The position numbers and the translations under genes are program-made. From assembly GCA_043228905.1 (NCBI GenBank), contig JBHGNT010000007.1, forward strand, positions 2,666,001 to 2,730,000: DNA of 64,000 bases, written 5' to 3'. A model generated the notes under the pieces. That model did no database searches. It was not told where the DNA came from and was given only the letters and a program-made list of their open reading frames with translations. Shown here piece after piece: positions 5,012 through 51,049 of the stretch (positions are counted from its first letter, which is position 1; each line of letters opens with the position of its first letter). Source of the stretch: Azolla caroliniana (lineage: Eukaryota; Plantae; Polypodiophyta).

Positions 5012-5690
5012 AATGAATGGCTAGCGGGTAGGTCGGATGCAGCTTGTCACGATGACGGATCCTAGAATGTACTTAGCTGCTTTCATACATCGTCACAAAG
5101 TGTTGCACATTGTTGTACATCCCCGGCCACGAGTACCTTCCCTTGAGCTTCTCGAATGTAGCCCATGTCCCCCAATGTCCAGACTAGGGACTCTCATGGA
5201 ATTCCGCCAATAGTTATGATTGGTCCTCCTTCCTCGTCACAATGTGGAGTGGTGTACCATTCCGCTTATACGGATGCTGCCAGATTAACCCATCCTTTAG
5301 GAAGAATTTGTACACCTTGTTCCGGATCCGACCCACCTCCTCCTTCATCCATGATGCATTTGTCACCATCGTGCTCAGGAACCTTCCGATCAGAAGCCAC
5401 TCCCTATCGTAGTCGCCTTCCCTGAACGCATGTAGGGTCGGAGTGCTCTGCCCATGTCTCATCAGTCGGGCCATTTTGAAGAAATCATCTCCGACTTCCT
5501 CATCCTCTTGTACCATGTCGTCTTCTACTTCGAACTGCGCTCTTGACAGCATATCGGCCATGACATTGTCCTTTCCGAAAATGTGTCGGATTTCCGGATT
5601 CAGGGACTTGATGTATGCGATCCATATGAGCATAGAAAGATCCGGAGTGGCACATCCGGATATCATCACGAGAATCGGGAGACAGTCCAT

Positions 5691-6562
5691 TGTCGTGGAG
5701 GATTCCGGCTACCATGAGAGGAGTTTGTTGAATGCGTGTGAAAACAGGTGTGCAAGCATGCACATGAACACAGTCTAATATACAAAGAATTAAAATATTG
5801 AAGTATAATAACTACTTTAATGGCTTGAATAGGTACTTTAATGTCCCATGAAAAGAGAGGGAATAAAGTGTGTGTTGGGAGGAAAACAAGGGGAGAATCG
5901 CTAACAGAATCGGTTGTCTTAAATAGCTGATATAAGATCGACCCTCATCCCGTTTTATCTATAAAAGAAGAGGGGAAGACCGTTGAAGGTATCCATCATT
6001 TTGGAAGGGAAGATGTCATCAGTTTGTGCTCAGATTTTTCCGCTTTTCTGTTATGTGCATTCAGTGAGGGAAGGTGAGGCTTCTGCTCGCATAGGAAGCC
6101 CGACCAGAGGTTCACCAGTCGGTGTGTTTGTTGAGCTCAAAGCTCTGTTCCCGGCCGGCAGACCATTTCTTGTATTCTTTCTATTAATTAACTATTGATT
6201 TGCTATATTCAGGGCTCTTGTGTTCGTTACTCCTGTTGTGTCCGGTTTTTTGCTTCTTGTTTGTTGTTTCCAGGGAGGCATTTGTAGAGAAACATGCGGA
6301 ATATCGCTCGGCCACAACTGAGTAGTAAATCACTTCTTCAGGAATCAAACACAGGAATGGGAAGTGGAGAGTACACAAGAAAAAATGATACAGGATGTTT
6401 ACGTGGAAAATACCCTAATAGGGAAAAAAACCACGGGAGCCCAAAGACTCTGAACTATCATCACTATGAAGAGAAAAAAGGGGTTACAATCAGAGACTTG
6501 GAAGCAACAACCTCGAGCTATGTTTCTTTGCACAATGGCGGTTACAATAGAGTATCGCTTTG

Positions 6563-6613
<51 letters not shown>

Positions 6614-9600
6614 GTACAACAGTTACAACAACATAATAACAACACACTCTTTATATGTATATATAAAGTGATTGCCCTAAGTCATATTTATAGTTATATG
6701 AACTTAGGGCTATTTACAAATCTGTCCTCTCTTCCAGTTCTCACCGGGTCCTCTTTATTCATCACCGGATCCCATCCGGAGGGACTGATTTCCCAACAAT
6801 CTCCCCCTTTACTCCGGCATGGGATGTCTTACCAGCCCGATCTGCTTTTGGCATGCGTCCAGCTTGTCAGTTGTCAGCACCTTGGTCAGCATGTCTGACC
6901 CGTTCTCCTCCATGTGGATCTTCGTCAGCACGAACTCTCGATCTTCAACTTGCTCCCGAATCCAGTGGTACCTACATTGGATGTGCTTCGTTCTGGAATG
7001 ATAACCCGCGTTCTTTGCAAGGTGGATGGCACTTTTACTGTCGTAGTAGAGCCGATATTCCTCTTGCCAGATCCCTAGCTCTCCGATGAAGTCCTTCATC
7101 CATAATATTTCCTTGCCGGCTTCCATGGCTGCCATGTACTCCGCCTCCGTGGTTGACAACGCAACCGTCTTCTGCAGCCTCGACTGCACGAAACGGCTCC
7201 CCCTGCATAAGTCATTACATATCTGGATGTAGACCAGTTGGTGTCCACACCAGTCGACATATCTGAAGCGGTAAATCCTTCCATGAGGGGTTTACTGGAG
7301 CCGAATCGGAGGCACATACTCGAAGTGCCCTTCAAGTACCGGAGTATCCATTTCATTGCATTCCAATGTTCTTTTTTGGGGTTCGTCATGAACCAACTCA
7401 CCAATCCGATTGTGTATCCAATATCCGGTCGAGTACACACCATTGCGTACATCAAGCTCCCGACCGCAGAGGCATATGGAATCTTCATCTTATCCGCCTT
7501 CTCTGCCTTTGTCTTCGGGCTTTGCTTACCTGATAATCTGCAGTTTGCCGGGAGTGTCAATCCAACTGGTTTTGTTTCTGACATGTTGAACCGCTGAAGC
7601 ACATTTGTCACGTACTTTTCCTGTGACAGCCACAATTGCTTCTTTAACCGGTCCCGGATGATGTGCATCCCCAGTATCTGTCTTGCTGGACCCAAGTCTT
7701 TCATTGAGAAGGTTTGGTTAAGGTCCTTCTTCAGCATCCGTATCTTGACTTGGTCTCGTTCGACGATCAACATGTCGTCCACTTACAGGAGCAATATCAG
7801 GAAATCTCCTCCATCAAATTTCTTCACAAACATGCATTGATCGGCCTGCATCTTGTGGTACCCTTGATCGGTCATGAACGAGTCAAACTTCCGGTACCAT
7901 TGCCGGGGAGCTTGCTTAAGTCCGTATAAGCTCTTCTTCAGCCGGCACACCAGGTGCTCCTTCCCTTTCTTCTCAAATCCTTCCGGTTGATGCATGTAGA
8001 TCTCTTCTTCAAGGTCTCCGTGTAGGAATGTTGTCTTGATGTCCAGTTGCTCTAACTCGAGGTCCATGCTTGCTGCTATGCCCAATACCGTCCGGATGGA
8101 TGCCATCTTTACTATCGGGGCAGAGATCTCATCGAAGTCCACTCCTTTCTTCTGCTGGAAGCCCTTCACCACGATTCGGGCCTTATACCTTGGTGGATTT
8201 CCGGCGTCTCCCGGTTTCAGCTTGTACACCCACTTGTTCCAGAGTGCCCTCTTTCCTTTCGGCAACTCCACCAACTCGTATGTGTGGTTCTCATGTAGGG
8301 AATCCATCTCGTCCTGCATGGCACTCAACCACTTGCGGTTGTGGGTGTCCCCCCTTGCTTCTTCAAAGCTTTCCGGCTCCCCCTCATCGGTTAGCAACAC
8401 ATGCTCTGCATCCGGAAATCTTCGGGGGGCTCTTCTCTCCCGGAGGGGATATCTCTGTCCTTGGTTTCTGACTGCCGGTTCCTCCGTCTATTCCTCATCC
8501 AAATCTAATTCGGGATCTTGTCTGGTTCCGATGTCTTCTTGTTCTTCTTCTTCGGTCGGTTCGGTTTCTTGTCCGAATCTGGTCGGTTCGTCAAGTGTCA
8601 TCCGGTTACCGGGTATATCCTTTTGTCCTCAAGCCGGTTTTCAATGGATGATCTGGAGTTCGTTGCCTTCTTCTTCGACTCCCAGTCGGCAATGGTCCTG
8701 TCTTCCATGAAGACTTTGTCCCGACTCCGGAACACCTTTCTATCAACCAAATCCCACATCAAGTAACCGAACTCATCATCTCCATATCCAAGGAATATGC
8801 ATGGCTGGGACTTCGGATCTAGCTTTGCTCTCTTGTTCTTCGCCACATGCACGTATGCGAGACACTCGAACACCTTCAGATGCCGGTAAGACACATCTTT
8901 ACCGGTCCATACTTTCTAAGATGAGTCTCCTCCCAAGGGTACTGAGGGTGATCTGTTTATCACATAGGTCGCCGTCGTCAGCGCCTCAGCCCAAAACATC
9001 TTGGGTAACTTGGCATGTGCGAGCATGCTCCAGACTCTCTCCATTATGGTCTGGTTCATCCTTTCAGCCAACCCGTTTAGTTCCAGCATCTTCGGCACGG
9101 TGAATTCGAGCCGGATTCCCTTCGATCGGTAGTACTCCTCGAATTGCCCTCGGTATTCTCCTCCGTTATCTGCTCGAACTGCCTTCCACTTCTGGCCAGT
9201 TTCTCTTTCCACTCTCGCGTGGAGCTCCTTGAAGATGGATAACACTTGATCCTTCGTCTTCAACGGTGAGACCCACAGCTTCCGGCTGTGGTCATCTATG
9301 AACGTCACGAAGTACTACGATCCAGCATGTGACTTCGTGTCTACTTGACACACATCGGTATGCACCAGCTCCAATGGTGCATTCCATCTCATCAGTGGTC
9401 TTGACCGGAAGGAGGTGCGGTTTTGCTTGCCGGTCAGGCAATCAGTGCACTTCTCAAGTTGCACGTCCTTCAGCGGAATGAGGTTGTCTTCGGCAAGCCT
9501 CTTCATCCCCTTCTCACTCATGTGACACGGTCTCTTGTGCCACATGTGACACAGTCTCTTCCCGGCATATCCGGGCATTCATCAAGTACAACGTGTTGAC

Positions 9601-11582
9601 CTTCTGGGCTCGAGCCACTATTAAGCTCCCTTTGCAGAACTTTATGACACCGTTCTGAATGCTACCTGTGTAGCCTTCATCATCTAGATGACCGGTTGAT
9701 ATCAGGTTTAGTCGAACCTCCGAAACGTGTCGGACATCCTTCAGCAGCAACTTGCATCTGGTTGATGTCGTCAACAGCACATCTCCTATGCCGATAATTC
9801 AACATGTCCCTTCATTCCCCATCCGGACACAGCCGTGCTCACCGGATGTGTAGGATGAGAAGCATTTTTGGTCCGGGGTAAGGTGGAATGACGCTCCGGA
9901 ATCGACAACCCATGTTGTCTTGTCGACGGCAAGGTTTAACTCACTCTCCTCGGTGATGAGCATTAGTTCTTCTTCACTTGCCACGATCGTCGTCGTTCCC
10001 TTCCGGTCCGGGCCTCACCGATCCAAACCGTTTCGGTCTGGTGACTTCTTCGAATCGATACTGTCGGTTCCCTTGTCTTTCCGGAAATGCCGACAGTTCT
10101 TCTGGAAGTACCCCGACTTGCCACAATAGAAGCAAGTGGGCCTCCCCCTTGACTTTGACCGTGTCCCCGACTTTTCCCGGTTCTAGGGACTTCGATTCCT
10201 TTGTCTTCCGCATTCCGATTCGGTAAGGGGGTCTTTGGCGTCAGAGATCACCTCCTTGTCTTTTCGACGCGCCTCCTCATCTAGCAAGCTCGACTTGACT
10301 CTTGCTAGGGATAGCTATTTTCCTTCCGGCCCGGTGTTGCCCAACGTGACAACTAACGTCTCCCAGCTATCCGGGAGGGAACAAAGCAGGAGTAGAGCAA
10401 GTACCTCATCGGCGAGAGGTACTTCCAACGAGGTTGCTTGGTGTATCAGCCCCTAGAAGGCATTCATGTGCTCCGCCATACTGGAGTCGTCTTAGTACCG
10501 GAGCCTCACTAGCTTCCGAAATAACGAAACCCAATTAACGATATTCTTGTTCTGAAACATGATGCCTATCTTCTCCCAGAGTTCATGAGCCTTGCTCTCT
10601 TCATTGAAGTTCTTGTACAGGCTCATGTCGATGAAGCACCGGATGTATGTCTTCTTCTTCATGTGCATCACCTCCCACACCGTGGCGTCGATCTTATCCG
10701 GTCTCTTGTCCCTGAACTGAACCGGCAACCAAAGATCTTTGACCACTAGCATTTCCCTCATCTTCGACTTCCACAGTGAGTAGTTGGAGCCGGTGAGCTT
10801 GAACATGCCGCCGAAAGATTATTCCATTTTCTGTGTTGTTTGCTCTGATACCAGTTTGTAGAGAAACGCGTGGAATATCGCTCGGCCACAACCGAGTAGT
10901 AAATCACTTCTTCAGGAATCAAACACAGGAATGGGAAGTGGAGAGTACACAAGAAAAAATGGCATAGGATGTTTGCGTGGAAAATACCCTAATAGGGAAA
11001 AAATACCACGAGAGCTCACAGACTCCGAACTATCACTATGAAGAGAAAAAAGGGGTTACAATCAGAGACTTGGAGGCAACGACCTCGAGCTTGTTTCTTC
11101 GCACAGTGGCGGTTACAACAGAGTATCGCTCTGTATCTCTCTCTCTCTCTGTACAGCAGTTACAACAACATAATGACAACACACTCTCTATATGTATATA
11201 TAAAGTGATTGCCCTAAGTCATATTTATAGTTATATGAATTTAGGGCTATTTACAAATTTGTCCTCTCTTTCGGTTCTCTCCGGGTCCTCTTTATTCATC
11301 ATCGGATCCCATCTAGAGGGACTGATTTCCCAATAGCATCAATTCCCTCCTCCTTCGTTCTGTGTTTACTCTTCGTGTTGAGAGCCCAAGTGTTGAGTTC
11401 CTGAAATCCAGTGACAAGGCCGGATGAGATACAAGTCCTACGAGCCTGTGTGTTGCGCAAAGGTCTCCGGCAACCGAATCGATTAGAACGCTACAGGTTT
11501 CGCAGCTGCTCATTACGACTCCCTAGTCCAAGACCTTTGTGGTCCCGCCTGATCTAACACATGCACAGAGATATCTATGACA
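5691..11582 (+). mobile_element. Gypsy solo LTR (about 835 bp: 5691-6282 plus 11341-11582), itself split by a copia element
   Basis: TGTCGTGGA...TCTATGACA ends; flanks CCAT/CTGT; similar in reverse complement to the LTR at 14202-14970. Confidence 0.8.
6283..11335 (-). mobile_element. Full-length but degenerate Ty1/copia retrotransposon; LTRs 6283-6798 and 10857-11335
   Basis: PBS TGGTATCAGAGC (tRNA-iMet, 10842-10853); PPT at 6799-6810; TSD GCATT/GCATC; gag, WVVDSGAS protease, integrase, RT and RNase H fragments with stops and frameshifts. Confidence 0.95.
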
Positions 11583-13665
11583 CTGTCTCAATAATCACCT
11601 ATGTCCCGATCAAATAATCTTTGTCAACCTTGATTGCCGAAACAATATCCCATTGTTCTCTTAACTTGGGTGTATCCTTGCTGACGCTCACTTAGTACCT
11701 CCGCTCCAAATCGGATGGCGAATCTCGTGCCGCCTTCTTCCTCCTAGCTGATCACCCACCCGATTCCAGTCAAACTCGTGTCGACCGTCACATAAATTGG
11801 AGATTCCTTCCCATAGACCACCTTCTAGAGAGTTGGTGCCGCCGTTAGCATATTGTTTAGTCTCCTCACATCCTCCATGTGCTCTTTTCCCCATTCAGAC
11901 CTCCGCCCCTTCTTCAATAAGCCATGGAGTGGTTCGACGATATGTGCATAATGGGGAATCCAAATGTGGTAGAAGGCACATGCCCCTAGGAACAATCGAA
12001 CCTCAGTGGTCGACCTACATTTCTCCTTCATCGCTGAGATGGCCTCGACCTTAGCTAGAGACGGTTTCCGTCCGAAGGGTCTGCATATGTAACCGACCAC
12101 CAAGATCTCTGATTGTCTGAACATCGACTTCTTCCCAAAGAAGGTAACTCATGCTCCCTCCAACCTTTGTAGTATCTTCTCACCGTCAGCAATGTGGTCA
12201 GCTATGAACTTCCGACATTCATCTTCTGCGAACGTCTCGTCCTTCTGGTCCTCTGGACACCCCTTTATTGGAATGTCATCCAAGACGTGCATGGTGATGT
12301 CGGGGATGCAATCCCCTAGTACCTTATTCATTACATTCACCATGTCCATCACTGAATTCATTCCTCCTTGCGGTAGGGTACACATCCAAACTCAGTTGAG
12401 TGGGGTCTCTCTACACGACATGCCTCTTCCTTCCTTACCTTCTTTCTGGAGCATCCCTCTAACACCACCGACCAGAATCCAATGTTGTTTCCTATCTCGA
12501 CACTCTTACGTCCTCCAACTTGGATACCGGCCGACGCTAAGTAATGGATGGCCTCTACATGTTGTGTCGCCTCCTCCTCCATTATCCTCTTCATTCCCCC
12601 CCGATCAATGTCTCGGCCATTCCAGAGATAGATGACATTATTCTTCAGTGCCACAACTTAGTCAGCGTAGTCCCTCCGAATATGGTCAACACTACCACAC
12701 CACATGCACCAAAGGGTATGAGGTGGCCACCGATCTTGAGAAGGGCCCCCACCATCTCTCTGAGCTTGAGCAATCTAGAGGTCATGCACCATATTTGTGA
12801 GCTCCTCAAATGCCGCCCCTCCAGACGGTCCATCGACCATGTTAGTCAATACCGGGCTCAAGTTGACCCGTCTTTTCGTCTCCTCTGATCGAGTCGGCAC
12901 GTTCGCTACTACTCCTCCCTTCGTGGTCGGGCCTATCAACGTTGACCCCTCGTCATTCCATTCCCACCATTTGTTGAAACGGCCGCATACTCCCTTTACC
13001 ACCACCCAGTCGGTCGTTGGGCCTTCGTTAATCTCCAAGAGGAGACCAACCTTCTCTCGGTCGTGCAAGAACAGTCTGGTCCAATGTTGATAGTCGCGCA
13101 AATTGCTTCTCGAACTCCCAGAGAAGCGTCGTCGTGTTCCTTCCTTTCCCCAGGAGCTCGAACCACTCCATGAGCTCCTTCTTCGACAACAGGAGTGAGT
13201 CATCAAAGTCATACATTTTGAGGAGTCGCTCCTCGAATTCTGACAAGTTATGGCAGTCGGTATGTATCTTGAGCACCTCGGCATGAATACTCGGCGTGAC
13301 AACCTAGGAAAACCCGGACAACTGTCTATCGTCTGGAATGTCTCTCATCAACATTTTGGCCTTATAGGATTGATTCCAAGTAGTTCGTAACGTCACTTCC
13401 ATGAGATCGTCCCTTATAGGAATGTCCGACTATTGCTTCGATGGCCCTATCGAGGTCCGTTGAGCTTTCTTGAGTGTTCACGAGGCGGTCTATGGTAACC
13501 GCCATGGCTATGCGAGCTTGACTCCCCTCATCATTAACTCCCCTACCTCCCTTTCATGTCAGGTTCACCAAATATGTCACAGATATCTGCGGCTTTTGGG
13601 TCGGCTTGGGCGGGACCACCAGTGTATCATACCAAGGAGCTTAAGAATGAGTGACAGTTGAGGTT

Positions 13666-14201
13666 TGTAACGACCGATCCAGCCTAGTTACTAGAGTTTG
13701 TGTTCCATAGGCTAGAAATGTAATTACAAAATATGTAAACTCGCCGGTAGGTAGAAAAGTAGGTGAGGAAATAGGTAGAACTAAAATAGTCGAGTTTTGA
13801 GCCCCTCACAATCAGCCGACGACTCGGCTCTGTGTAAAGAAGAAAACTATATAACCCGAGACCTGCATACCTCGGTAGAGAGAGATATACCTAGATTATT
13901 ATCAAGATTAGTATAGTAGCGCTTAGCTCTGCACAAGACTGTTTCCGACCGAGAGCCGTGTACTGTATTCATTGTGAGCTTTCTCATTTAATATAAATCT
14001 CGCTCTTACTGTTCCTTCATCTGTGTGTTCTCCCCATACTCGTAATCCTAGCTACTTCTACTTCTACCGGGTTGTAGCCAGTGTACGCTCCACGTTCCCC
14101 TAACGTCTTCAGCATGTAGAAGAAGCCTTCACGTAACACGAACCCTTGATACCGATAGCCTGTGGGCTCATCGAAGGTGTTTCCTCCAGAAACGGTTAAC
14201 A
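13666..14201 (+). mobile_element. Probable solo LTR nested in the gypsy 5' LTR
   Basis: TGTAAC...GTTAACA ends; TATA-like box near 13848; imperfect flanks GAGGTT/GAGTT. Confidence 0.55.
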
Positions 14202-15635
14202 GAGTTCATTTACTGAGCACACGGGCTCGCAGAATTGTATTTGATCTAGTTCTATCACTGAATTCCGGAAGACGGAAGATGAGCACACGGGCTCTCAGAC
14301 GCAAGTGGGTAAGAGTATAATAGAGGAGAGAAGGACGACACCTTTCCAGACACAAGGGGCAGAGAAGAGAGTCTATTGTTAACCCAAAATGAATAGACCA
14401 ATACAAAGATCAGCCACACACCAGATACACCAATGCCAGTAATCGATTAAATATAGAGAAAGAATACAAAGAGATGGCCTTGAGCCAAAAAACAAAGCTC
14501 CGAGCTCAACAAACACACTCTAGCAAGCCTCTAGTCGGGAGCACAAGGGCTACCTACGCGAGCAGAGGCCTCACACGACCTAACCAAATAAGCAGAACAG
14601 AAAACCTAGAGCACACGACTTCACAATTCGACAGCACACCTTCACCTTCAAAAATGATTGATCCCCCCAAAAAAACAATTTCCTCCCCTCCTTTTATAGC
14701 TCAAGGAGGGCCGATTACATTAGTAGTTATGATAGTTGTTTATGTCAGAGATTTCCCATGATTCCCTTAAATTCCTCCCATCATGTCCTATTATTCCCTC
14801 CCTCTTTTCGAGGGCCCATAAGTTCTAATAAAATATGTATCATGTTGTACTTATTAATACTTCAATAATTATAATTGTTTGTACATAAGACCTAGTATGT
14901 GCATGCTTGAAAAGCCTTGTTCCTACGCATCCGACGAGTTTTCTCCTTGTGGTCGGAATCCCCCACAACAACATAAAGTACAACAATCTATACCCGCTCA
15001 CAATGATTAGTCAAGAGGGATCACTAAACGTAGCCGAATTGCTGGCCTCTACGTTTTGGCATGTCTTATTAGGACACATGTCACAAGCCATACTTGAACG
15101 TCTATTGACAATCGGCTACATACCAAAGCTCAACCATGCTGAGACCGACTTCTGCGGGCATTGCCGACATGGGAAATAGACCCAATGTCCTGACTTAGTT
15201 CATTTACGAGACAGTATGACAACCCCTAGAGTTGATCCACACTGACATTTGCGGGCCGATGCCTAAAAGGTCTCTAGATGACACACAATACTTCATCACA
15301 TTCGTCGATGATTGTACTTGCAAGGTATGGGCTTATTCGATCAAGTCCAAGGACGATTGCTAGAAGTTTTCGCTCGATGGCTAACCAAAGTAAAAAACTG
15401 ATCCGGCCACAAAGTGAAGACGCTATGGTTGGACAAAGAAGGACAATGCACCTCTAGAGCCTTCACAAAGTACCTATCCGAAAAAGGGATCAAACATCAA
15501 CAGACCATTCCCTACACCCCAATGCAGAACGGTGTATCCGAACCAATGAACTAGACGATCCAAGAAAGAGTGATGGCAATGCTCCAACAATCAAGACTCA
15601 AGCTGAAATTCTGGGCCGAAGCATTGCAAACGGCA

Positions 15636-16200
15636 ACATACTTGAAAAATCTATCGTCGTGTAAAGCAAGCAAGCTTCAAGTGCCACAGGAACTATGGTC
15701 GAGCCAATAGTCCAACTACGACTGGCTTCACATATTTAGAGGCGAAGCTTGTGCTCAAATACCACAAGAGAACATAACAAAGCTAGCCCCCCACTTGAGA
15801 AAATGCATCTTTCTCAAATATGGGACAAATGGGAATTTCGGCTACAAGCTATGGGAACTAGAGAACTATAAATTGATTCGGAACAGCGACGTAGTCGTCA
15901 ACGAAGACTCAATAAGCACATACTTGATAAATCTATCGTCGTGTAAAGCAATCAAGCTTCAAGTGCCACAAGCACTATGGTCGGGCTAGTAGCCCAGTTA
16001 CGACCAACTTCCCATATTCGGGTGTGAAGCTTATGCTCAAATACCACAGGAGAAAAGAACGAAGCTAGACCCCCACTTGAGAAAATGCATCTTTCTCAGA
16101 TATGGGATGGATGGGAATTTCGGCTATAGGCTATGGTACCCAGAGAAGCAGAAATTGATTTGGAGTAGCAACGTAGTCTTCAACGAACACTCAATAAGCG
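15636..16200 (+). repeat. 282-bp tandem duplication within the copia integrase
   Basis: ACATACTTGA.AAATCTATCGTCG at 15636 and 15918. Confidence 0.85.
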
Positions 16201-16204
16201 CAAA

Positions 16205-19696: not shown

Positions 19697-21145
19697 ACCC
19701 CAAACCCACAAGAAAGTTAGTTTTGACTATTCTCTAACCAAGTTTGAGAACAAAATGCCAGAAGTCGAACCCGAACTGGCTAGTGAGTCTACCAGCTAGG
19801 CTGAACGAGCACTCATAGAGGAAACTCTTAGTAACGTGCCAACTGATCGAGCCTAACTAGTGGTAGCACATGCAGCCTATAAATCCCTCATGGGAACTAC
19901 CTGGTCGAAAACTCCTGAAGTAGAAGATGAACATCCTTCTACAAGATCTCCTCTAACAAATTGAATCAAGGGTTCAGAAAATGTTGAACGAATACCTTGA
20001 CCAAATACCTGGATCGGTTGAAGAAGTGAACCGACCCAATTGGCACCGAGGAGATCTAGACAAGTCTGAAAGCTGATCGAGTTTTATCAACCGGGCTTGG
20101 GCTATGTCAACTATACGGATGTAGGTGAGTCGTGTACTTATGACAAAGCTATAATTGTGTCAGATGTTGACACATGGCGTAAAGTTGTGATATCTTAAAT
20201 GGACTCGATAAAAGAGAACGACATATGGGAGCAAGCTCCTCTACTAGCCGATAGAAAGTTGTTGCTATGCAAATGGGTGTTCCAATACAAGTATGTATCC
20301 AGTTTGGATGAACCCAAATACAAGGCTCCGCTAGTCGCAAAGGGTTTTAAACAAGAACACAACATCGACTATGACGATTTTTTTTTCCAGTAGTCAAGAT
20401 GACCACACTTCACCCGCTATTAGGAATCGTCACGACTGAAAACCTTGACCTCAAGCAAATGGACGTTAAGACAGCTTTTTTGCACGGAGATCTGAATGAA
20501 GACATATACATGTCTCAACCGGTAGGCTTCACGGAGATGGGGGAAGAAGGTCACCTCGTTTGTCGATTGAAGAAGAGCCTTTACGATGTCACGTAGAATC
20601 GCGCATGCATGTGCTACTCGAGCGGAACCACGAGGGTCTTGAACTAGAGAGTAGACTAGGATCGAAGAGTAGAAGATCTTGACTTGTCCTCTGTGGCCTT
20701 GAATTTTCCAGGTTTTGGCCACGCCATCCTTCATTCCAACCCTAGCTCCTAGCTAGTCGTGCTTTAGAGCTTGTCGAATGTACGAATGTTCGACGAGTCT
20801 CTTGTTGAACATTCGTTGCTCGTTAAACACTCAAACTTGTACCGGTCTGGTCCCTTCAGTTCTTTGAAACCCTGCCCCTCTCGTTGATCTTCTTTGAAGG
20901 ACACCCCATGAGCCATAGCTTCTTGAAGCTGCTTGACCTCCTTCCGCATCAGTATAACCGCCACCTAGAAAACACTCTAGCCTCGTTGCCTCGTATTCTT
21001 CTCTCCGATAATAGGCTTTAAAATTTTTGGGACTTCGTCCCCATTGAAACATCCGACTCTTTCGGCCACACTCTTGACGGCTTCTTGAGCCACATCTCGT
21101 TCGACTCCCCTTTTCGCTACATTTGTCCTCATCCTCGACATCGCC

Positions 21146-21602
21146 TTCATGAATAACAATTGACAATGGTTCGGTTTAAGAGTGTCAAAACTGAATAGTT
21201 TAAAAATTTTGAAACTTGAGCCGAACCGAACTAAACCACGAAACGTTAAACCGAACCGTCTAAAAAAAATCAAACCATTAAAATTGCGGTTTCAATTTTC
21301 AAGTTAGTTCAAATTTAAAATTTAAAATATTTCATTATTTTAAATTTAAATTTGTCAAAAATTTAAAGATTTTCCTAAAATGTGAGAATAAGGCTTGAAA
21401 ATGAAAAGATTCTTTTAATAATAAATAAATAAATATTAACCGTTACAGTGTTTAAACCACGATTTCTAACTGTTGGAATCGAACCGAATCATTTAAAAAA
21501 ACCTGACCTTGAACTGAAACAGACCAAACCATTTAAACCATTAAGTTGTGATTTTGGTTCGGTTCGATTTAAACCAAACCGTTGCCAATTGTTATTTATG
21601 AA
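21146..21602. mobile_element. MITE with AACCG-rich subterminal repeats
   Basis: About 34-bp TIR TTCATGAATAACAATTGACAATGGTTCGGTTTAA / TTAAACCAAACCGTTGCCAATTGTTATTTATGAA; AT-rich core; TSD not resolved. Confidence 0.75.
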
Positions 21603-21839
21603 TTCTCCTTCACCTGTTTCCCATCCTCCATCGGGTTCACCAGAAGATGTCGTATAGAATTGTGCTTGCGTGTGCTACTTGAGCAGGACCACAAGTGTAT
21701 TGAACTGGGGAATAGACTAGGATCAGGGAGTAGAAGATCTTCACTTGTTCTCGGTGGCCTTCAAACTGCTAGGTTTCTGTCACGTTGGCCTTCGTTCCAG
21801 CCTTGGCTTCGGGCTTGCCGTGTTTTAGAGCTCGTCGAA

Positions 21840-22297
21840 CGTTCGAATGTTTGACGAGTCACTTGTCGAACATTGGTGAGTGTTTGACGACCGTCGATCT
21901 TTGAGCTTCCATGTTCCTGAACAATTAGGGTTTTGACCCCAAGACGATTAACTCTTGATTAGGGACTTCATCATGAGATCAAGACAAAATTAGAAGAAAA
22001 ATGTACAAGTTGATGTTACAAAAAATGTATTAGAGCTTAGCTACTAATGTAAGCATATGATAAGGATACGTTCGAATGTTGGACGAGTCGCTTGTTGAAC
22101 ATTGGTGAGTGTTTGACAACCGCCGATATTTGAGCTTCCATGTTCCTGAACAATTAGGGTTTTGACCCCGAGACGATTAACTCTTGATTAGGGACTTCAT
22201 CATGAGATCAAGACAAAATTAGAAGAAAAATGTACAAGTTGATGTTACAAAAAATGTATTAGAGCTTAGCTACTAATGTAAGCATATGATAAGGATA
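21840..22297 (+). repeat. 229-bp tandem duplication
   Basis: CGTTCGAATGTT...AGCATATGATAAGGATA at 21840 and 22069. Confidence 0.9.
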
Positions 22298-22430
22298 AAA
22301 GATAGATAAATAAGAAAGGATCCCTTTGCTCGGGGTGGTAAGGTGGATCGACACCCTTCTTTCACTCTCTCCTTTCTTATTTATCTATCTTTTGTCCTTA
22401 TCATATGCTTACATTAGTAGCTAAGCTCTA
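22259..22430. repeat. Near-perfect inverted repeat (about 62-bp stem, about 49-nt loop)
   Basis: TTAGAGCTTAGCTACTAATGTAAGCATATGATAAGG... with its reverse complement ending ...TAGTAGCTAAGCTCTAA. Confidence 0.9.
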
Positions 22431-24638
22431 ACAAAATGGGTTTTACAACGAATTGGCTAATTACCACAATTTCGGTGGTTTTTACAACATAATCACCTGA
22501 ATGGTCTAAACAACAAGAAAAGAGGGAATAAACCGGTGAAGGTCAGTCTAGTGGGCTCTGAGCCCGACTACCTCTGCTGGCGACATTGCCTCGAACCGGG
22601 GTAGCTCTCGCGCCACTATGACCTCCCTTCCATAATCGATTCATCGAGTTTGCCCGCCCTTCACCCAAAAATTATCATCACACTGAACACTCTCCATTGT
22701 GGAGAGGACAACCAAACTACCAAGAATAAGACTGCCGAAAAATCCACTGTACAAACCGTCCAACCAAAACCCTAACTATAACAAGGTGGGAGTAAACCAA
22801 AACCCATAAACATATAAACCCTAAACTCACACAAATGAAGAACCTCTTATGCTCTAACTGTCAAGAAGAAACCTTAAGACCACATGGGGAAACCCTAAAA
22901 CCTCCCCCACTAAGACAAACAAGAGGGGAGGGAAACCGAAAAACCGAAACCCTAAAAGTGAAAGTAGAAAGAAGAAGGAAAAGAAGAACCTCGAAATCCT
23001 AATGGTGCACCTCAACTACAAACCCTAAAAAAAGTGATTCTCGACATATCAATCTTTATAAATTTTAGAGACAAATATAGTAACATAATTGCATTTCTAA
23101 ATTTGTTAAGTTGTATTCAAATTTAACATTTTGTACAATGAAGCATATTACAATTATAAGTGGATGCATTCCCATCATCTTATCTAATAATTGGATAAAT
23201 TTGTATGAATTAAAAAAATGTCGGTTAAATTTTAATCTGCAAAATATTAACTACATTTTTTAGTGGTGTCTTTAAAAATCATGTACGCATGCATGATAGG
23301 TTCTTGAAAGTTCGTTCAAAAAAGGTAATTCTTGACATCTCACGTGATTATTAATAAGGGAATGCGACATATTACCTGTTTCAAATGTCCCAGTGTTAGA
23401 AGAAGAAGAAGATGAAGACGCCCCCAAACCCTAACCTAATGGTACATCCCCTAACCAAAATTTGGGCGACCCCGAAAAACGCCCTCGTTTCCCCCTTTTA
23501 TAGAGAAAGGGGCTAATTTCTGCATTAAATCCAAAAATTATTTCCTTGGCTCATTAAAAGGAAATAAAATGTCCCCCTTTTTCGCAATTTCAAAGAATCA
23601 AACTTTGCACCTCCCTATATAAACTTTGCCACAAACTCTTATTAGTCTTTGTTTGGTTTCATATTTATGACAACGGCTTGAAGCAAGCATCGCGAATGTG
23701 GTATGAGAAATTCAACTCCCACATCCGACAACTTGGATAAAACACAAACACAAACACAAACACAAACACAGATACTAGCACAAACACCCACACACACCCA
23801 CGCATCTATTAGATATAATGTTCTCGAAGGTGATGAACAAGGGTCTTATGCATTTGTGAGGAGATGAACATGGGAGGATGAGGACTCGAGAGTTGCCATG
23901 TATCAATAGGATTCTTCGTTGAGGAGGGCCACAGAGGTCAGTCATAGCCAGGTGCATACATATATATATATATGTATGTAACGAGAGGAGGCGATTTTCG
24001 CAGGGGTGGGTGGATCATGGTCATGGTAATGGCCGGCGCCTAACGCGGACAACAAATTATGTTAAAAAAACCTGCATTACAAAAGACTTGTACATTTATT
24101 GTGCCCCAACTCCTTCTCTTTGATCATTCCAAATTTCATATTTTCTGTTAACCCCTAATATCTATTAATCATAATTTGATCACTCCATATTTTCTTCTTC
24201 TTCTTCTTCTTCTTCTTCTCCTTCTCCTTCTCCTTCATCAAACCCTTGCTCTGAGATTGCATCTATTTTGGCTCTCAGCGTATGTTTCACTGCCCTCTTC
24301 GCCCTCTCCATAGCCATTTCTTCCTTCCTCAAATCTCTGTCAGGTGTAGCTTCATCGTCTCGCCATCGGTAAGTGAGGATTTCCTTTCGCTCTCTGCAGA
24401 GAATGCTCCCATATCTGGTAAGTAGAAACAGTGGTTTCCTTTCTAGAAATTTCTCTGTTTGATTGGGCCCTTCGGGGCGTATGAAACTCCCGGAAGGAAT
24501 CAGAAAGAATCCAGAAAAAATATGAAGTTATATCCATTGATGAATCCACACAGATTTCGCCTAAGCTAAGTTGGTATGCCGGAAAAAAAATTCTCTGCTT
24601 TTTCATCTTTTCTTTCCTAAGTAAAGAAGATAGAAAGA

Positions 24639-37187: not shown

Positions 37188-37256
<69 letters not shown>

Positions 37257-38703: not shown

Positions 38704-38743
38704 TCTAATAGCCTTGGCTGACAAGGTATTTGGTGCATCTTGT

Positions 38744-42879: not shown

Positions 42880-44776
42880 TGTCGCGAAGTTTCGCGCACG
42901 TGTGTTACTTGGGCGGGACCACGAGGGTCTTGGACTAGGGAGTACTCAAGGGATAGAGAAGACCCGAGGTTTGCTTTATGACAATACTACTTCCCGACCC
43001 CTTCCCGAGCAAGGTCTCGTTGCCCTTTGTTTTGTGAGGCCGGTGGCTCTCGTTGATCACGACTTGTTGACCTTTTGAGATCACCGCACAAGTCAAGTGA
43101 CCAAACGGGTACAAGCAAGATGAGCATGCAAGATGAACGCACAAGGGGACAATAATACAAACACGAATGTCCGTACGTCTTTATGAGGAGGAGAGGTGCA
43201 TGGGCACGCCCGAATTCTCCCTCATCACAAGACGACCGAACGTACGAGGAAGACACAAAACACATGCACAAATGCTCGTACGCCTTTATGAGGAGGGGAG
43301 GTGCATGGGCAAGCCCGAACACTCCCTCGTCACGAGACGAACGAACGTACAAGGAAGACACAAACACATGCACAAAATGCTCGTACGCCTTTATGAGGAG
43401 GAGAGGTGCATGGGCAAGCCCGAAACTGTCCCTCGTCACAAGACAACCGAACGTACAAGGAAGACACAAACACACACAAATGCTCGTACGTCTTTATGAG
43501 GAGGAGAGGTGCATGGGCACGCCCGAAACGCTCCCTCATCACAAGACAGCCAAACATACAAGGAAGAGACAAACACACACACACAAATGCTCGTACGCCT
43601 TTATGAGGAGAGGTGCATGGGCAAGCCCGAACGGTCCCTCGTCACAAGACGGCCGAACGTACAAGAAAGACACAAACACACGCACAAAATGCTGATACGC
43701 CTTTATGAGGAGGAGAGGTGCATGGGCAAGCCCGAACGGTCCCTCGTCACAAGACGGCCGAACGTACAAGAAAGACACAAACATACACACAAATGCTCGT
43801 ACGTCTTTATGAGGAGAGGTGCATGGGCACGCCCGAAACTCTCCCTCGTCACAAGATGGCCGAACGTACAAGGAAGACACGAATAAGGAAAGAAGGAGAG
43901 AAGGAAACACGAATGATATCGACCAAAGAGATAAATACGTGTTCGATTCCAACGCAAGAGGACCCTTTATAAAATAGGGTTTTGTTTACAATGGCAACTT
44001 ATAGTTAACCACAAGCTCAATCAAAACATAAATACTAAATGCCCTTAGAGACAAAAGTAAATCCGAACACGGCGAAGATGAACACATGAGCAACACCAAA
44101 ATGCCAATCCCAACAAACCACGACCACCCAAACGGCGAGCACACGGGCTCGCAACGACGAATGGGGCGGAGCAACGTCGAACCAACGAAGTTTGGGCTCA
44201 CGAGCACTTCGACTGCTGACGCAAAGAAGACGAGCACTTCGAGTGCCGATGCGAAGAAGACGAGCACGTGGCGGTGGGGGGATGAAGGGGTATGAGATGA
44301 AGAGAAGTGGCGAATAAGAAGATGAAGAGCCCCAAAGGAAAATTGGCGATAATCTCCTCCTCCCAAACGTCCCCCTCGACCTCCTTTTATAGGAAAAAAA
44401 GAAAGGGGGTCGCCAATTTTGTCTTCAATGAAAAAGGAATAAAATTCCTTAAATCATGCTGCATCGTAAGACTAGATTTGAACCATGCACATCTAGCTAG
44501 AAGTCAATGTGACTATCCACTAACCCATTAACTCTCTCTTATAAAGTATATAATTCCATTTCTATAAATTCCTAGCCTGTCTCCCCACTACCTTTTATCT
44601 CCCCTCTCTCTTACTTTTTGCACGAGCTTCTATACCTCCTTTCCACCCTTTCTTTTCCCTTTTATTTTGCATATGCACAATTAATCGCCTTTGTGTGCAC
44701 ACACATTGCACATTGCACATTTTGACCCCCCCCTTTTACCGGTTTTTCCCACTCTCGAGCACGCCACATCACGACA
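42880..44776 (-). mobile_element. Large gypsy solo LTR (1897 bp) with an internal tandem array
   Basis: TGTCGCGA...TCACGACA ends; perfect 4-bp TSD CCGG; terminal block GGGCGGGACCACGAGGGTCTTGGACTAGGGAGT shared with the LTR ends at 11520-11582, 13575, 20587 and 21648. Confidence 0.85.
43155..43881. repeat. About 105-bp tandem repeat, about 7 copies
   Basis: TTTATGAGGAG.AGGTGCATGGGCA.GCCCGAA recurs near 43180, 43285, 43390, 43494, 43600, 43703 and 43806. Confidence 0.95.
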
Positions 44777-45976
44777 CCGGTTATTTGGCAATGGAATGAA
44801 GTCGTAGGTGTCGATATCTTGAATGGAGTTCATCTTTGACTCCATAACTAGTTGCTAATTGGCTTAATCATCTATTGTTGTAAGTTCTTTATAAGTTGAA
44901 GGTTCATGGGCATTTGTATAGAAATTGCAAAGTGAATACAATTTGGGTAAATGAGATGGTCTTTTATATTAACATGCTAAGATCTAGCCCATCGGATCAT
45001 CACCGATGATCTCTTCTAAAGTGGCTGGGATATCGACTACTATCAATACAATTTGAAGCGTAGGATCAACTACTTTTTGAGTAACTAATTGGGCGTGTTG
45101 GGTGGGGTCATCGAGAGGAGACAAATATCAATTAAAGTTTGATTGCTTTGTGCATTGTCTAACGCCCGATCTTATCTTGGGGTCCCACAAGTTATAACCA
45201 ATGTTTCCATTGGAACCATAAAATCAACGAATGCTCTTGAGGTTACTATTGGAGGGAGGCAAAGTTAGGAGGTGAATATTCAAGGCCAACGCTCCCAAGG
45301 TGACCATTGGAGGGAGATGAATGCACCGATGCGAATGAAGAGAGGCAAAGGCTCGCCAACTAGCAATTGCTTAACCCTCCTCACTCTCACACATGCACAC
45401 ACAATGGCCTAAGGTAATTAACATATGATTAGCATCAATCACATGAGATTAGCATCAATCACATGAGATTAGCACTAATGCACTTGATTAACACTACAAC
45501 ACAAGAATAGCTTGAAATATATGTTTATACAGATATATTTGTTCTTTCTTACGACAAAATGGGTTTGCCAAATATTGTCATGAAAGTAGTGGCATTTAGA
45601 AGGATTAAAAGCTTAAAGAAGAAGAATGACAAGAGGTCTTGATCTTTTGGTGAAGGTGAGTTAGTGAACCGTCGATGTTGAAGTAGTGTTTCTCAGGCCA
45701 CTTCGTGCTCCCTTCAACAAGCGACGTGCAAGCTAGTTGAACCCTTAAACTCGTAAACACGTGGTGAGCTCAATCGTGATAAAGACCACGGCAAACTTCG
45801 AAGTAGAAGAGGAGGTGGAGAAGAAGAAGTGAAAATTGTAATTGTTGAGAATCAAACTCAACTTCTTGTGTGTGAGAACACACTCTAGGATACTCAAGTG
45901 TGTGACCATCCCACCTCCTTGTCTAGTAACTAGTGTGTCATAGAAGTTAATATCCTATGACACATATTCTTTACGT

Positions 45977-48900
45977 TGTCGGGGTAGTTGTGGTTCGTGC
46001 GGCAAAGTCGTAGGGACTAAGGTTAAAGGGAGTTGACGAAACTTTTATAAGGCTTTGCGCACAAATGTTAGGAAGATTAAGGATAAGAAGAATAAGAGTT
46101 TAAAGTAATGTGTGTGTGAGAGAGATGAGCATAGATAAAAGATAGAGAGAATGTATTATTTAAGAAGAAAGAGTATAAGATATGAACATGATTTATAGTA
46201 AGAGAACAAGTTTTTACCAACATTACAATGCTTTATAACAAGATGAACCCTTTCTCTACCGACTCTTGATTTGAACCCTTGACTCGAACTTGAAAACACG
46301 AGCCTCTTCACCAACAAGCTAACTTGTTTCATTAATTATGTTCTAACTTTCTCTTGATTCCCCTTTTGTTTTCCTGTCCCCTCTTTTTATAAGTATTGCC
46401 ATGCATATAGTAATGTGTAGGAGCATGGCATGCATGTAATGCATGAGTTACATGTGATGCATGATCGCCATTTGGCGCACATGCATTGTATGTGATGCAT
46501 GATAGCCATCATGCTCATTTGAGCTCCCATGTATGAAAATATATATGAGATAAGTATAATGATGGATATAACACTAAAACAAATAACCTAGCTTAGTGGT
46601 GTATGCTTTGTGCTTGACATGCAAGGTTGAGGGTTCAAGTCCCTCAATTTTACTTAATACAATATTTAAGGTTATTCTTATATAGTGAAGCACATTCTTG
46701 ACAACATTTCTAAAAATAGCCTACCCTAGTGGTATATACATTGTGATTGGTTTATAAGGTTGTGGGTTCAAGTGTTTGAAATATTACTGAATTCAATATT
46801 TAAATTTATTTTTATATCGTGAAGCAAATCCTTCACGACCCACCCCCTCTAAAGTTGCACACTGGTTGTGCAAAGTTCATCCAAAGTCTTGGAAAAACTC
46901 TTCATTCCGTTTCTAAACTGGATGTCCCCTCAAGCATTCTTTGTTTCTTTCATGGTTAGGCGTCATGGTTAAGATATGGCCCCTCTTCCTTCCATCCTAA
47001 CTCTTGATCCTCACGAAAGCTGAATCATCATTAATCACAGTTGTTTCCGACCTTACTACGTTGATGTATGGTTCACCATCCTTTGTTTCCATACTCACGA
47101 CGTTGATGTATGGTTGACCAAGGATGACGGGGTATGTTGATCCATCTTGTACATAGTAATTTTGATCCACCGACACATCTCCCATTGTTGCTTTCACATT
47201 AGGACATGCTTCGAATAGATCCTCCATCATCTCTGTTGCAACTCTTTTCTTCGAACCATGATTCTTATCGATTGGCCACCTTCCTTGAGCACAACATTCC
47301 GACGACATCATGTTAATTTCTGATCCATGATCTATCAAAGCAATACAGGGAATCTGTTGCTCCGTAATTTTTGTAGGCGCCTCCATTGTTGCTTGAGCCC
47401 AATGGTTCTTTGTATAATGAATCCTATCCCCTTCATGAATCCCAACATGATTTATCTTCTTTACACCTGCAACATTGATGGATTCATGATCCAAATCTTG
47501 GAGACTTGTTGCTGCACATTCTCTTGTAACTTCTTCCATGACATGTTTTATATCCGTCGTGTCTTTTGTATCCAAAGCAAGCTTAAAAGTTGGGTCTGTC
47601 TTCCCTTTGACTTTATCAACTTCTTTTGACTCAGGAGCATCCTTTTCCATCTCTCTTCTCTGAAGTTGTTCTTGTGTCTCATGTTTCTTTGCCGAATCAG
47701 CCTCGTCAGCTCTCTTTCGCTTCTCTTCCACTAGTGCATCTTGTACATTCACTTGGGCAAATGTTGATGGTGTGTCTATTGGATCATTCCATCCAGTGAA
47801 GTTCCGTATTTCATTACTCGCGCTTTTTAATTCATTCACTTGAACCTTCCCTTTTCTTGCATACTCCATCACACCTTGCCAAAAGCCAGATCCACCATAT
47901 GTGTCTTCTACACGCAACCCTAACGTTGTCACAGATTGTATTGTTTGAGTTGTTTATTTCTTGGCATCTTCCATTAGCTTTTTCATTCCACCTCGCCCGA
48001 AGTTGACTTGAAGTGGTTGTCGAGTCTCTATCGAGTGAATCTTAGCATCTTGATAATAGATTTTATCATGATTAAGAGCATCCCTATTTTCTTGACAATC
48101 TTTCTTATGATGGTCGATACTACTATCACACCACATACACCTTCGGATCATTCCCCTTCCTTGCCTTGACGAAGTTAAGCTTTGTCCCGATTCTGGCTTT
48201 GTCACTTTGATCGATAAGTCTTTCATGCCTTTCACCAACTCATGCAAGAGTGAATCTTCTATTTTCTTCTCTCCCGAGTTATTTCCCATTTCGTCTCCCT
48301 TCCTCTCAGGCAACTCCATAAACCATAACTTTCTTTTACAAAAATGGTTGCACACCCTTTTCACCTCCTCCCAGTCTTCGGTAAGTCCACTTTGACTATT
48401 TTGATCTTCCAGAAGCATTCCCAAGTCCTTCCTGTCTTTAATATTAGTGGTCCACTTTGACTATTTTGATCTTCCAGAAGCATTCCTAAGTCCTTCCTGT
48501 CTTTAATATTAGTGGTCCACTTTGACTATTTTGATCTTCCAGAAGCATTCCCAAGTCCTTCCTATCTTTAATATTAGTGGCTTGTAGAAACAATATTATT
48601 TTATCTGGCATTATTATATTTCAATCCCTAACATTTAATTGCTCAAATCTTTCTGAAAATTCTTTTAATACTTCCAAAACACTTAAATGTTTATCAAACT
48701 CTACCCAATCCATGAAAGCTCACCTTGTCATCATTGACATATCATTGAGGTTGTATTCATTCAATAATGCTCTTTCAAAAGTCGCCCATGTCTGATGCTC
48801 TCTTTGTAGTTCCTGGATCCTTTCTTGTAGCCCAATCGCAGCAACTCGACTAAAGCTATTAATTTTTGCCGCTTCGTCGACATCTCGTTTAAGCATTTCC

Positions 48901-49963
48901 TCTTTGTAAATCTTCAGAAATCTTGTTAAATTCATACCTTCGAAGATCCCTACTCGTGCGAGAATATTGTCACGGCTTTGTTGATGCTTGACATCATCCC
49001 TTGCTCCCGCATCATTCGTTCCATCATCGTACACATAAGCCTCATTTGTTCCTCCATTTTTCCTTGTCGCCACCTTCACATCAGGTTCATCAAATGTGTC
49101 GAGGTAGTTGTGGTTCGTGCGGCGAAGTCGCAAGGACTAAGGTTAAAGGGAGTTGACAAAACTTTTATAAGGCTTTGCACACAAATGTTAGGAAGATTAA
49201 GGATAAGAAGAATAAGAGTTTAAAGTAATGTGTGTGTGAGAGAGATGAGCATAGATAAAAGATAGAGAGAATGTATTATTTAAGAAGAAAGAGTATAAGA
49301 TATGAACATGATTTATATTAAGAGAACAAGTTTTTACCAACATTACAATGCTTTATAAGCAGATGAACCCTTTCTCTACCGACTCTTGATTTGAACCCTT
49401 GACTCGAACTTGAAAACACGAGCCTCTTCACCAACAAGCTAACTTGTTAATTTCATTAATTATGTTCTAACTTTCTCTTGATTCCCCTTTTGTTTTCATT
49501 TCCCCTCTTTTTATAAGTATTGCCATGCATATGGTAATGTGTAGGAGCATAGCATGCATGTAATGCATGAGTTACATGTGATGCATGATCGCCATTTGGT
49601 GCACATGCATTGTATGTGATGCATGATAGCCATCATGCTCATTTGAGCTCCCATGTATGAAAATATATATGGGATAAGTATAATGATGGATATAACCCTA
49701 AAACAAATAACCTAGCTTAGTGGTGTATGCTTTGTGCTTGATATGCAAGGTTAAGGGTTCAAGTCCCTCAATTTTACTTAATACAATATTTAAGTTTATT
49801 CTTATATAGTGAAGCACATTCTTGACAACATTTCTAAAAATAGCCTACCTGAGTGGTATATACATTGTGCTTGGTTTATAAGGTTGTGGTTTAAGTGTTT
49901 GAAATATTACTGAATTCAATATTTAAATTTATTTTTATATCGTGAAGCAAATCCTTCACGACA
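45977..49963 (-). mobile_element. Non-autonomous gypsy element encoding only gag and protease; LTRs 45977-46840 and 49097-49963
   Basis: Highly similar LTRs; perfect TSD ACGT; PBS complement TTCACATCAGGTTCATCA; PPT AGAGGGGGTG; gag with CMWC..HHKKDC knuckle; protease LIDHGSEINMM; no RT, RNase H or integrase. Confidence 0.92.
48386..48580. repeat. 65-bp tandem triplication within gag
   Basis: TCCACTTTGACTATTTTGATCTTCC at 48386, 48451 and 48516. Confidence 0.9.
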
Positions 49964-51049
49964 ACGTAGTTAAGACATGACCTCATTCCCAAGAGGCGTT
50001 ACTAATGAAAGAACTTAGAGAGAAGGTGACTACATAAGCACCTTCTCCTTCTCTTTGTAACTATTGATCATTCTTGTCTCCTTGTTAATACAATTTTTTG
50101 TTTTTCTGTAATCTTGAGTTCTCTCTCTCTATCTCTCTCTACACAGAGAGAGAGAGAGAGTTCTTCCGCTATACAGAATCCATTCAATTCGTTACATGGT
50201 ATCAGAGCACGTGGTAGCTTGATCCAAACCCATCGCCTTTACGTGTGTTGTGCCCAAGCCCGTGTTCGGAAAGAACCAATTGATCATTGTAGCAGCAATC
50301 GGCACAATTCGTATCAAGAGAAGAAGAAGAAGTTTGACAATGAACACTCAGATCGGAAGCGCTCTTCCTACCAAGAAACTCAACAGAAACAATTAGAGAC
50401 TACCATACGTTCCATTCATGTACCTGCTCATAATATTCTGCTTCACCCCCCACACCGTCTTCTCTCATCCTTATCCCTCAAAACAATTTTGCTTCTTAAG
50501 TCCACATCAACCATCTCGCCGATTACCACCAAATTCTTGTATACATAATAACGAAGTGAATATTTGTTCCAAATATTATGCACACTAGGAGCACAATCTT
50601 GTCTAAGAAACACATGATTCGGAATTCTAAACCTAGAATTTCTATGTTGCTCCTGCAAGACTATAACTAACCGAACCGTTGCCGATTGTTAACTACTTCC
50701 AACAAAAAGATGTTTTTAATATCCTTTCAGAAGGGTTTCATTATGTACTTTTGACCTTCATTGAGCGCATAAATGTTACTACATGCTTTTAAGACATTTT
50801 TTACTCATGGGAACTATACAATGAATCTTAAAATTACTTATCCTCTAACAGTACTTCCCTTCACTTAGTGGGGAGTTTAGTACACCACTTAAAGCTACAA
50901 AAAATGGAAAAAAGTTATAGAATATAAAAATTTAAAAGTTATGGAAAATAAATAAAAGGAAACATCAAATAATTAGGGGACTAATCAACAGGCTATGGTA
51001 AAGGAAGTGTTTAAAAACAAACACCAAAAAGAACAAGATTGTGAAATAT

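What the first reader, a model, noticed from the sequence alone, without database searches (positions are those of the whole stretch)
5687..49967. A gypsy group that appears to insert specifically at CpG, making 4-bp MCGK target duplications
Seen: the TGTC/TGTT...GACA gypsy insertions have flanks CCGG/CCGG (42880-44776), ACGT/ACGT (45977-49963), ACGA/ACGG (20587-23672) and CCAT/CTGT (5691-11582). In the last case each copy is one deamination from CCGT, on opposite strands, and CCGT restores the host codons ET-DCL. The single visible flank at 14971 is ACAT, consistent with decayed ACGT. The copia elements here have 5-bp TSDs with no such consensus. Established: plant LTR elements usually make 5-bp TSDs with weak sequence preference, whereas sequence-specific 4-bp TSDs are known from Drosophila errantiviruses. 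Inference: an integrase that recognises a palindromic, possibly methylated CG, steering insertions into other TEs. All five sites lie within TEs. The sample is small, and two sites are reconstructed.
Basis: partly seen in the sequence, partly recalled or inferred. Interest (0 to 1): 0.82.

Follow-up and report, generated by a model that had tools for sequence, protein, structure and literature searches.

The report
Phygy-type retrotransposons inserting at CpG
Five related jumping genes in this plant DNA sit at four-base target sites centred on a CG pair or its decayed form, a habit already published for the Phygy retrotransposon lineage to which they likely belong, so the pattern is real but mostly known, and whether the enzyme senses methylation is untested.

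Summary
Independent tests agree: 7 of 8 genomic flanks of related LTR ends in other assemblies are NCGN, the eighth is ACAT (CpG background 3%), and read contigs give plurality MCGN in 4 of 4 runs. The motif is looser than MCGK: VCGB fits 10 of 10 sites. It is not new: REXdb lists Phygy as 4 bp (100%) NCGN with a tRNA-Trp primer, ferns are reported to carry Phygy, and Ginger1 transposons make CCGG/CCGT duplications. These elements match Phygy in TSD, primer site and lack of chromodomain or extra RNase H; a tree with true Phygy sequences could not be made. Methylation sensing and steering into TEs are untested. Small addition: an invariant D-R-G-E integrase motif as a candidate determinant.

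The parts
5687..5690 (+). left target copy CCAT (likely decayed CCGT) of the solo LTR
5691..11582 (+). solo LTR of the lineage (about 840 bp of its own), split by a nested copia at 6283-11335; inserted antiparallel into the RNase H of a same-lineage element
   Evidence: 5690-6191 is 65% like 14971-14447; 3' end aligns with the other LTR ends
11583..11586 (+). right target copy CTGT (likely decayed CCGT)
5007..5687 (-). end of RNase H and integrase zinc finger of the host Phygy-type element; broken off before the catalytic core
   Evidence: tblastn with P0046, 49% identity
11651..13366 (-). gag and zinc-knuckle remnants, RT and RNase H of the host element; stops, frameshifts, a deletion over protease and the start of RT
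   Evidence: RT-RH 70% to P0020, 57% to an Adiantum protein, 53% to Riccia proteins
13559..13570 (-). primer-binding site, 4 nt after the 5' LTR
13575..14970 (-). 5' LTR of the host element
14971..14974 (+). single visible flank ACAT, in a copia pre-integrase region; original letters not recoverable
20583..20586 (+). left target copy ACGA
20587..23672 (-). internally deleted element: 5' LTR 21648-23672, primer site 21631-21642, 3' LTR remnant from 20587 (78% over 230 bp); inserted in a copia RT
23673..23676 (+). right target copy ACGG, which matches the host codons
42876..44780 (-). solo LTR 42880-44776 with a ~104-bp tandem array, between CCGG copies; host is an old low-copy copia RT; family depth far above single-copy flanks
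45973..49967 (-). non-autonomous element 45977-49963 between ACGT copies: LTRs 49097-49963 and 45977-46839 (839 of 862 identical), primer site 49081-49092, gag-zinc knuckle-protease 46916-48965, purine tract before 46839; host is a copia LTR

Best explanation
These are five copies of one non-chromovirus Ty3/gypsy lineage, likely Phygy, flanked by 4-bp target duplications centred on CG (consensus VCGB), and their integrase likely selects the CG from the DNA sequence itself. Inferred steps: the integrase joins the two LTR ends 4 bp apart on either side of a symmetric CG step. As in other 4-bp integrases the target is likely sharply bent at a central pyrimidine-purine step, which also explains the lack of T at position 1 and A at position 4. 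This lineage narrows YR to CG by an added base read-out; the invariant D-R-G-E after the second catalytic Asp and the conserved loop before GPY are candidate contacts. After insertion both copies become methylated with the surrounding TE DNA and decay by C-to-T changes, giving CCAT, CTGT, ACGA and ACAT. Methylation of the target is not needed to explain the data and is untested.
For: Shown: TSD length and letters; shared LTR ends and primer site in 3 of 3 elements with an internal region; 7 of 8 outside flanks NCGN plus one ACAT; plurality CCGT, ACGG, CCGT, ACGC behind the LTR end in 20, 33, 14 and 26 contigs of four runs; the filled copia-LTR site has ACGT where paralogous empty sites have AAGT. 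VCGB in 10 of 10 observed CG sites against 43% of NCGN words in the window (about 2e-4 by my arithmetic). Published: Phygy 4 bp (100%) NCGN, tRNA-Trp primer 81%, no extra domain; Phygy in ferns and a liverwort; foamy-virus TSD consensus VYRB with a bent central YR step and Ala188/Arg329 contacts. Intact relatives have RT-RH-INT with no chromodomain or extra RNase H, and D-R-G-E-L in 22 of 22 aligned integrases, the Glu aligning with foamy-virus Ala188.
Against: No Phygy reference sequence was available (REXdb fasta and main table too large; no Physcomitrium-named hit), so membership is by features. The tRNA-Trp identity of the primer site is recalled, not shown (searches found no tRNA gene to test it). 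The window's own integrase core is deleted, so the motif comes from relatives at 50-70% RT identity. In one search only 1 of 4 listed terminus rows read NCGN (CCTA 17 contigs, CCAC 11, CCGA 10, and TCTT before 42880, 24 contigs); these rows mix in purine-tract and primer-site junctions and lose flanks that match the reference. One search gives plurality letters only, and the runs share insertions. No residue was tested for contact.
Confidence: 0.75

Rival explanations
1. The integrase prefers methylated CG. Lacking a chromodomain, the lineage would reach silent TE-rich DNA by reading 5mCpG directly.
For: All five window hosts are TEs; the 45977 host LTR is strongly CpG-depleted (o/e 0.0 and 0.19); Phygy nested in Tcn1 is common in Physcomitrella; Phygy-class domains are enriched at centromeres in a liverwort.
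Against: No methylation data were examined. The window is mostly TEs, so TE hosts are expected. Decay of the TSD copies shows methylation after insertion only. CpG o/e within 300 bp of the 8 outside sites is 0.36-1.08, one lies near a gene exon. Foamy-virus and HIV local preferences are largely independent of chromatin.
Confidence: 0.2
2. The elements are a separate lineage, not Phygy proper (for example TatI, which also has 4-bp TSDs and a tRNA-Trp primer, or an unnamed DUF4100-type clade), with a shared or convergent CG preference.
For: TatI: 4 bp (100%), tRNA-Trp 75%. No Phygy sequence could be placed in the tree.
Against: TatI has an extra RNase H between protease and RT; none was found in full-length P0046 or in P0020. 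NCGN is given for Phygy alone. Selgy uses tRNA-Ala; chromoviruses carry a chromodomain.
Confidence: 0.15
3. Only DNA bendability is selected (any YR step), and CG is seen often by chance.
For: 4-bp integrases favour central YR steps; decayed copies show CA and TG.
Against: CG is 13% of YR steps in the window, yet 7 of 8 outside flanks are CG and none is TA (P about 4e-6). Mutation removes CpG, so decay cannot create the excess.
Confidence: 0.03
4. Chance or boundary picking by the first reader.
For: Five sites, two of them decayed and one one-sided.
Against: Boundaries are fixed by LTR homology and host frames; the outside flanks were taken with a pattern that did not constrain them.
Confidence: 0.01

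Closest known systems
Phygy clade of non-chromovirus Ty3/gypsy LTR retrotransposons (Neumann et al. 2019, PMC6317226; passages, section 9 and supplementary file 5 read)
   Same: 4-bp NCGN TSD; primer site that I recall as tRNA-Trp; no chromodomain, extra RNase H or extra ORF in intact relatives; non-seed-plant relatives.
   Different: Defined from Physcomitrella; here another plant, probably a fern, with decayed, solo-LTR and non-autonomous copies. The TSD here resolves to VCGB. Phylogenetic placement not tested.
Ginger1 DNA transposons (Bao, Kapitonov, Jurka 2010, PMC2836005; passages read)
   Same: Gypsy-like integrase with GPY/F motif, TGT termini, 4-bp CCGG (75%) or CCGT/ACGG (24%) TSDs.
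   Different: Ginger1 are cut-and-paste elements with inverted repeats in animals; these have direct LTRs, primer site, purine tract, gag, protease and RT.
Prototype foamy virus integration (Serrao et al. 2015, PMC4422553; passages read)
   Same: 4-bp TSD with consensus VYRB; T avoided at the first and A at the last position.
   Different: Foamy-virus preference is weak and accepts any YR; here the centre is CG. The Ala188 position, small and neutral across retroviruses, is Glu here.
TatI and Selgy (PMC6317226, supplementary file 5)
   Same: 4-bp TSDs in non-seed plants; TatI uses tRNA-Trp.
   Different: No sequence preference reported; TatI has an extra RNase H, Selgy uses tRNA-Ala.

Membership tests
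Phygy | RT/RH/INT cluster with the Physcomitrella Phygy clade | not testable with these tools
   REXdb fasta unreadable; tree of 32 rows puts the window RT-RH among unnamed, Adiantum and Riccia relatives but holds no Phygy reference
Phygy | 4-bp TSD | tested here: met
   4 of 4 two-sided sites, 3 of 3 host frames
Phygy | NCGN TSD sequence | tested here: met
   7 of 8 outside flanks, 4 of 4 plurality rows, 3 of 5 window sites with an intact CG copy
Phygy | primer site for tRNA-Trp | tested here: inconclusive
   conserved site in 3 of 3 window elements, 18 nt long in L003, L005, L006, complementary to a CCA-ending small RNA listed as miR894; Trp identity is recalled; searches did not confirm it
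Phygy | no chromodomain, no extra RNase H, no extra ORF | tested here: met
   Pfam on P0020 and full-length P0046 and precomputed domains of the 120 listed hits; tested on relatives, since the window copies are deleted there; extra ORFs not checked on DNA
Phygy | length 7.7-10 kb | not testable with these tools
   no intact autonomous copy in the window; no genome held
TatI | extra RNase H between protease and RT | tested here: not met
   none in P0046 or P0020
Chromovirus (Tcn1, Galadriel and others) | chromodomain after the integrase | tested here: not met
Ginger1 | terminal inverted repeats, transposase without RT | tested here: not met
   direct LTRs of 863 bp, RT and RNase H present

The most novel reading that the evidence does not exclude
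A chromodomain-free gypsy clade across mosses, liverworts, ferns and perhaps fungi finds silent DNA by reading methylated CpG with the integrase itself, through its invariant D-R-G-E motif or C-terminal loop; this would be a DNA-methylation-guided retrotransposon integrase and would link Phygy to the CCGG-specific Ginger1 transposases.
Probability: 0.15. Interest if true: 0.75.

Novelty: new member of a known kind. Interest (0 to 1): 0.22.

Why it matters
As it stands it extends a published exception (Phygy, NCGN) to several active-looking families in another plant, sharpens the motif to VCGB and names a candidate integrase motif. A CG-specific integrase that lacks a chromodomain is a clean case for asking how a retroelement integrase gains sequence specificity and whether it reads cytosine methylation; my searches found the NCGN statement only in the REXdb paper and no test of its mechanism. 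For annotation, tools that assume 5-bp TSDs will miss or misplace these elements.

Tried and rejected
No whole genome is held, so no genome-wide logo. First read-laying over 7.3 kb gave terminus rows mixed with internal junctions, 1 of 4 NCGN; a narrower call at an internal LTR junction removed that mixing. IMG/VR held no relative of P0020. Cluster look-ups for 10 proteins gave no organism names. Two scans for a tRNA gene ending in the primer-site complement found nothing; ARAGORN on 11 loci found one tRNA-Gln only; paper searches for the motif gave an unrelated mouse primer and miR894 tables but no tRNA-Trp assignment. GingerRoot was considered and rejected: 6-bp TSD, TA termini, only GC-rich preference. 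CpG o/e of flanks as a proxy for methylation was uninformative. The gypsy at 1-5000 is another lineage (DQGS integrase motif, extra ORFs; 22-26% identity to P0046) and was left out of all counts. Of 155 ORFs listed, 150 were scanned; of 42 flank ORFs listed, 24 were scanned. Three of the 11 loci (L003, L005, L006) are primer-site junctions and were dropped before the 7-of-8 count. No structure prediction was run.

Full report
Observation. Trying duplication lengths 3 to 6 at the four two-sided sites gives 0, 0, 1 and 2 mismatches at 4 bp and 3 to 5 at 5 bp. Three hosts are coding: a copia RT at 20587, an old copia at 42880 and the RNase H of a same-lineage gypsy at 5691; in 3 of 3 only the 4-bp option keeps the frame. 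The fourth host is a copia LTR whose paralogous empty sites carry one 4-mer, AAGT (locus L011, tables 5c and 7), while the filled copy has ACGT on both sides: the element sits in a copy that had a CG there. The fifth site (14971, ACAT) is one-sided and cannot be reconstructed. The two copia elements checked have 5-bp duplications, AATAT/AATAT and GCATT/GCATC.

Anatomy. The five are one lineage: their LTR 3' ends align, and the three with an internal region share a primer site 4-5 nt after the 5' LTR. 5691-11582 and 42880-44776 are solo LTRs; 20587-23672 is internally deleted; 45977-49963 is a young non-autonomous element (LTRs 839 of 862 identical) with gag, zinc knuckle and protease only; the element starting at 14970 has broken gag, RT and RNase H and ends after the integrase zinc finger near 5007. 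Its RT-RH, read with X at three stops, is 70% identical to unnamed metagenome proteins, 57% to an Adiantum nelumboides protein and up to 54% to Riccia proteins; a 32-row tree groups it with the unnamed ones inside a supported branch that also holds the fern and liverwort rows. The host plant was not determined; a fern is likely from these hits and from earlier unchecked notes on this genome.

Independent tests. No genome is held. A scan of metagenome contigs with the conserved LTR-end motif, which put no condition on the flank, gave 11 loci from two assemblies. Three are primer-site junctions; the other eight are distinct genomic flanks: ACGG, ACAT, ACGC, ACGT, CCGT, ACGT, GCGT, GCGG. Seven of eight are NCGN against a CpG frequency of 0.03 (P about 2e-10; about 4e-6 if only YR steps are allowed). 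These flanks are one-sided, so they test the motif and not the length. Contigs of four sequencing runs laid on an internal LTR junction of the 45977 family gave plurality flanks CCGT, ACGG, CCGT and ACGC from 20, 33, 14 and 26 contigs; these are plurality letters, not frequencies, and the runs share insertions. A first, wider laying gave NCGN in only 1 of 4 terminus rows, where purine-tract and primer-site junctions are mixed in. Of ten sites with an observed CG (seven loci, three in the window, taking the right-hand copy at 20587), seven fit MCGK and all ten fit VCGB, against 43% of NCGN words in the window.

What is known. Neumann et al. 2019 (PMC6317226; passages, section 9, supplementary file 5; files 1 and 3 unreadable, and they hold the sequences needed for a tree) report 93.4% 5-bp TSDs overall and name one exception with sequence preference: Phygy, 186 elements, 4 bp (100%), NCGN, tRNA-Trp primer 81%, no extra domain or ORF. 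Jedlicka et al. (PMC6911290, passages) confirm mostly 4-bp TSDs and frequent nesting in Tcn1. Phygy is reported in ferns (PMC13477047, one passage) and a liverwort (PMC12885004, passages). Ginger1 DNA transposons with gypsy-like integrase make CCGG or CCGT/ACGG duplications (PMC2836005, passages). The elements here match Phygy in TSD length and motif and in lacking a chromodomain and extra RNase H; the primer site is complementary to a CCA-ending small RNA listed as miR894 (PMC5846777, passages), which I recall as the 3' end of plant tRNA-Trp but could not confirm. TatI shares 4 bp and tRNA-Trp but needs an extra RNase H that is absent.

Mechanism. Shown: 4-bp stagger, central CG, no T first and no A last. 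Published for foamy virus: TSD consensus VYRB, a sharp bend at the central YR step, base contacts by Ala188 and Arg329, small neutral residues at the Ala188 position across retroviruses (PMC4422553, passages). Inferred: this lineage uses the same geometry and adds a read-out that narrows YR to CG. In 22 of 22 aligned relatives the second catalytic Asp is followed by R-G-E-L, with Glu at the Ala188 position; among 128 fetched proteins with this region, 116 have R and E, 6 R and D, 6 other first residues (many are near-copies). The other gypsy in the window has DQGS. These residues are candidates only. The decayed TSD copies are all C-to-T changes on one strand or the other, which shows methylation after insertion and says nothing on the state of the target before. 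All five hosts are TEs, but so is most of the window; of the eight outside flanks four are in recognisable TEs, one is near an AAA-ATPase exon and three are unassigned. Methylation sensing is therefore open, at about 0.2. Searches for a test of it found none.

Verdict. Real and well supported, but a new member of a known kind: Phygy-type elements with the published NCGN preference. Interest 0.22; 0.75 if methyl-CpG reading were shown.

Noticed in passing
window 1-5000 (+): A different non-chromovirus gypsy (RNase H, integrase with GPY, then extra ORFs at 2615-3454 and 3626-4327); its integrase is split by an insertion or gap at about 1000-1640 that includes a 54-bp repeat and sequence like the copia LTR at 6378-6721.
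   Followed up: no
window 4998-5047: The junction between that element and the Phygy-type integrase carries a 12-bp direct repeat 37 bp apart, as from microhomology repair of a deletion that removed the integrase core and 3' LTR.
   Followed up: partly
window 13559-13570, 21631-21642, 49081-49092; L003, L005, L006: The primer site is the complement of the small RNA catalogued as miR894, which in Cryptomeria maps to gypsy repeats; it ends in CCA and is likely a tRNA 3' fragment, not a microRNA.
   Followed up: partly
window 24621-about 27630 (+): Host gene of the ARABIDILLO type (F-box, LRR, Armadillo repeats; name recalled, domains), with further exons likely downstream.
   Followed up: no
window 17116-18309: Fold-back element with ~425-bp inverted arms at 88% and internal ~100-bp subrepeats.
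   Followed up: no
window 21150-21600: AT-rich element with short inverted ends nested in the internal part of the 20587-23672 element.
   Followed up: no
window 51050-56082 (-): Young copia with LTRs 99.6% identical over 284 bp and long open frames; 5-bp AATAT duplication.
   Followed up: partly
window 43135-43890: Tandem array of ~104-bp units inside the solo LTR; read depth there is far above the single-copy flanks, and joints show copies with other unit numbers.
   Followed up: no
window 20587-20816 versus 21648-21877: The two LTR ends of one element are only 78% identical although its TSD copies differ by one base; possibly a recombinant of two families.
   Followed up: no
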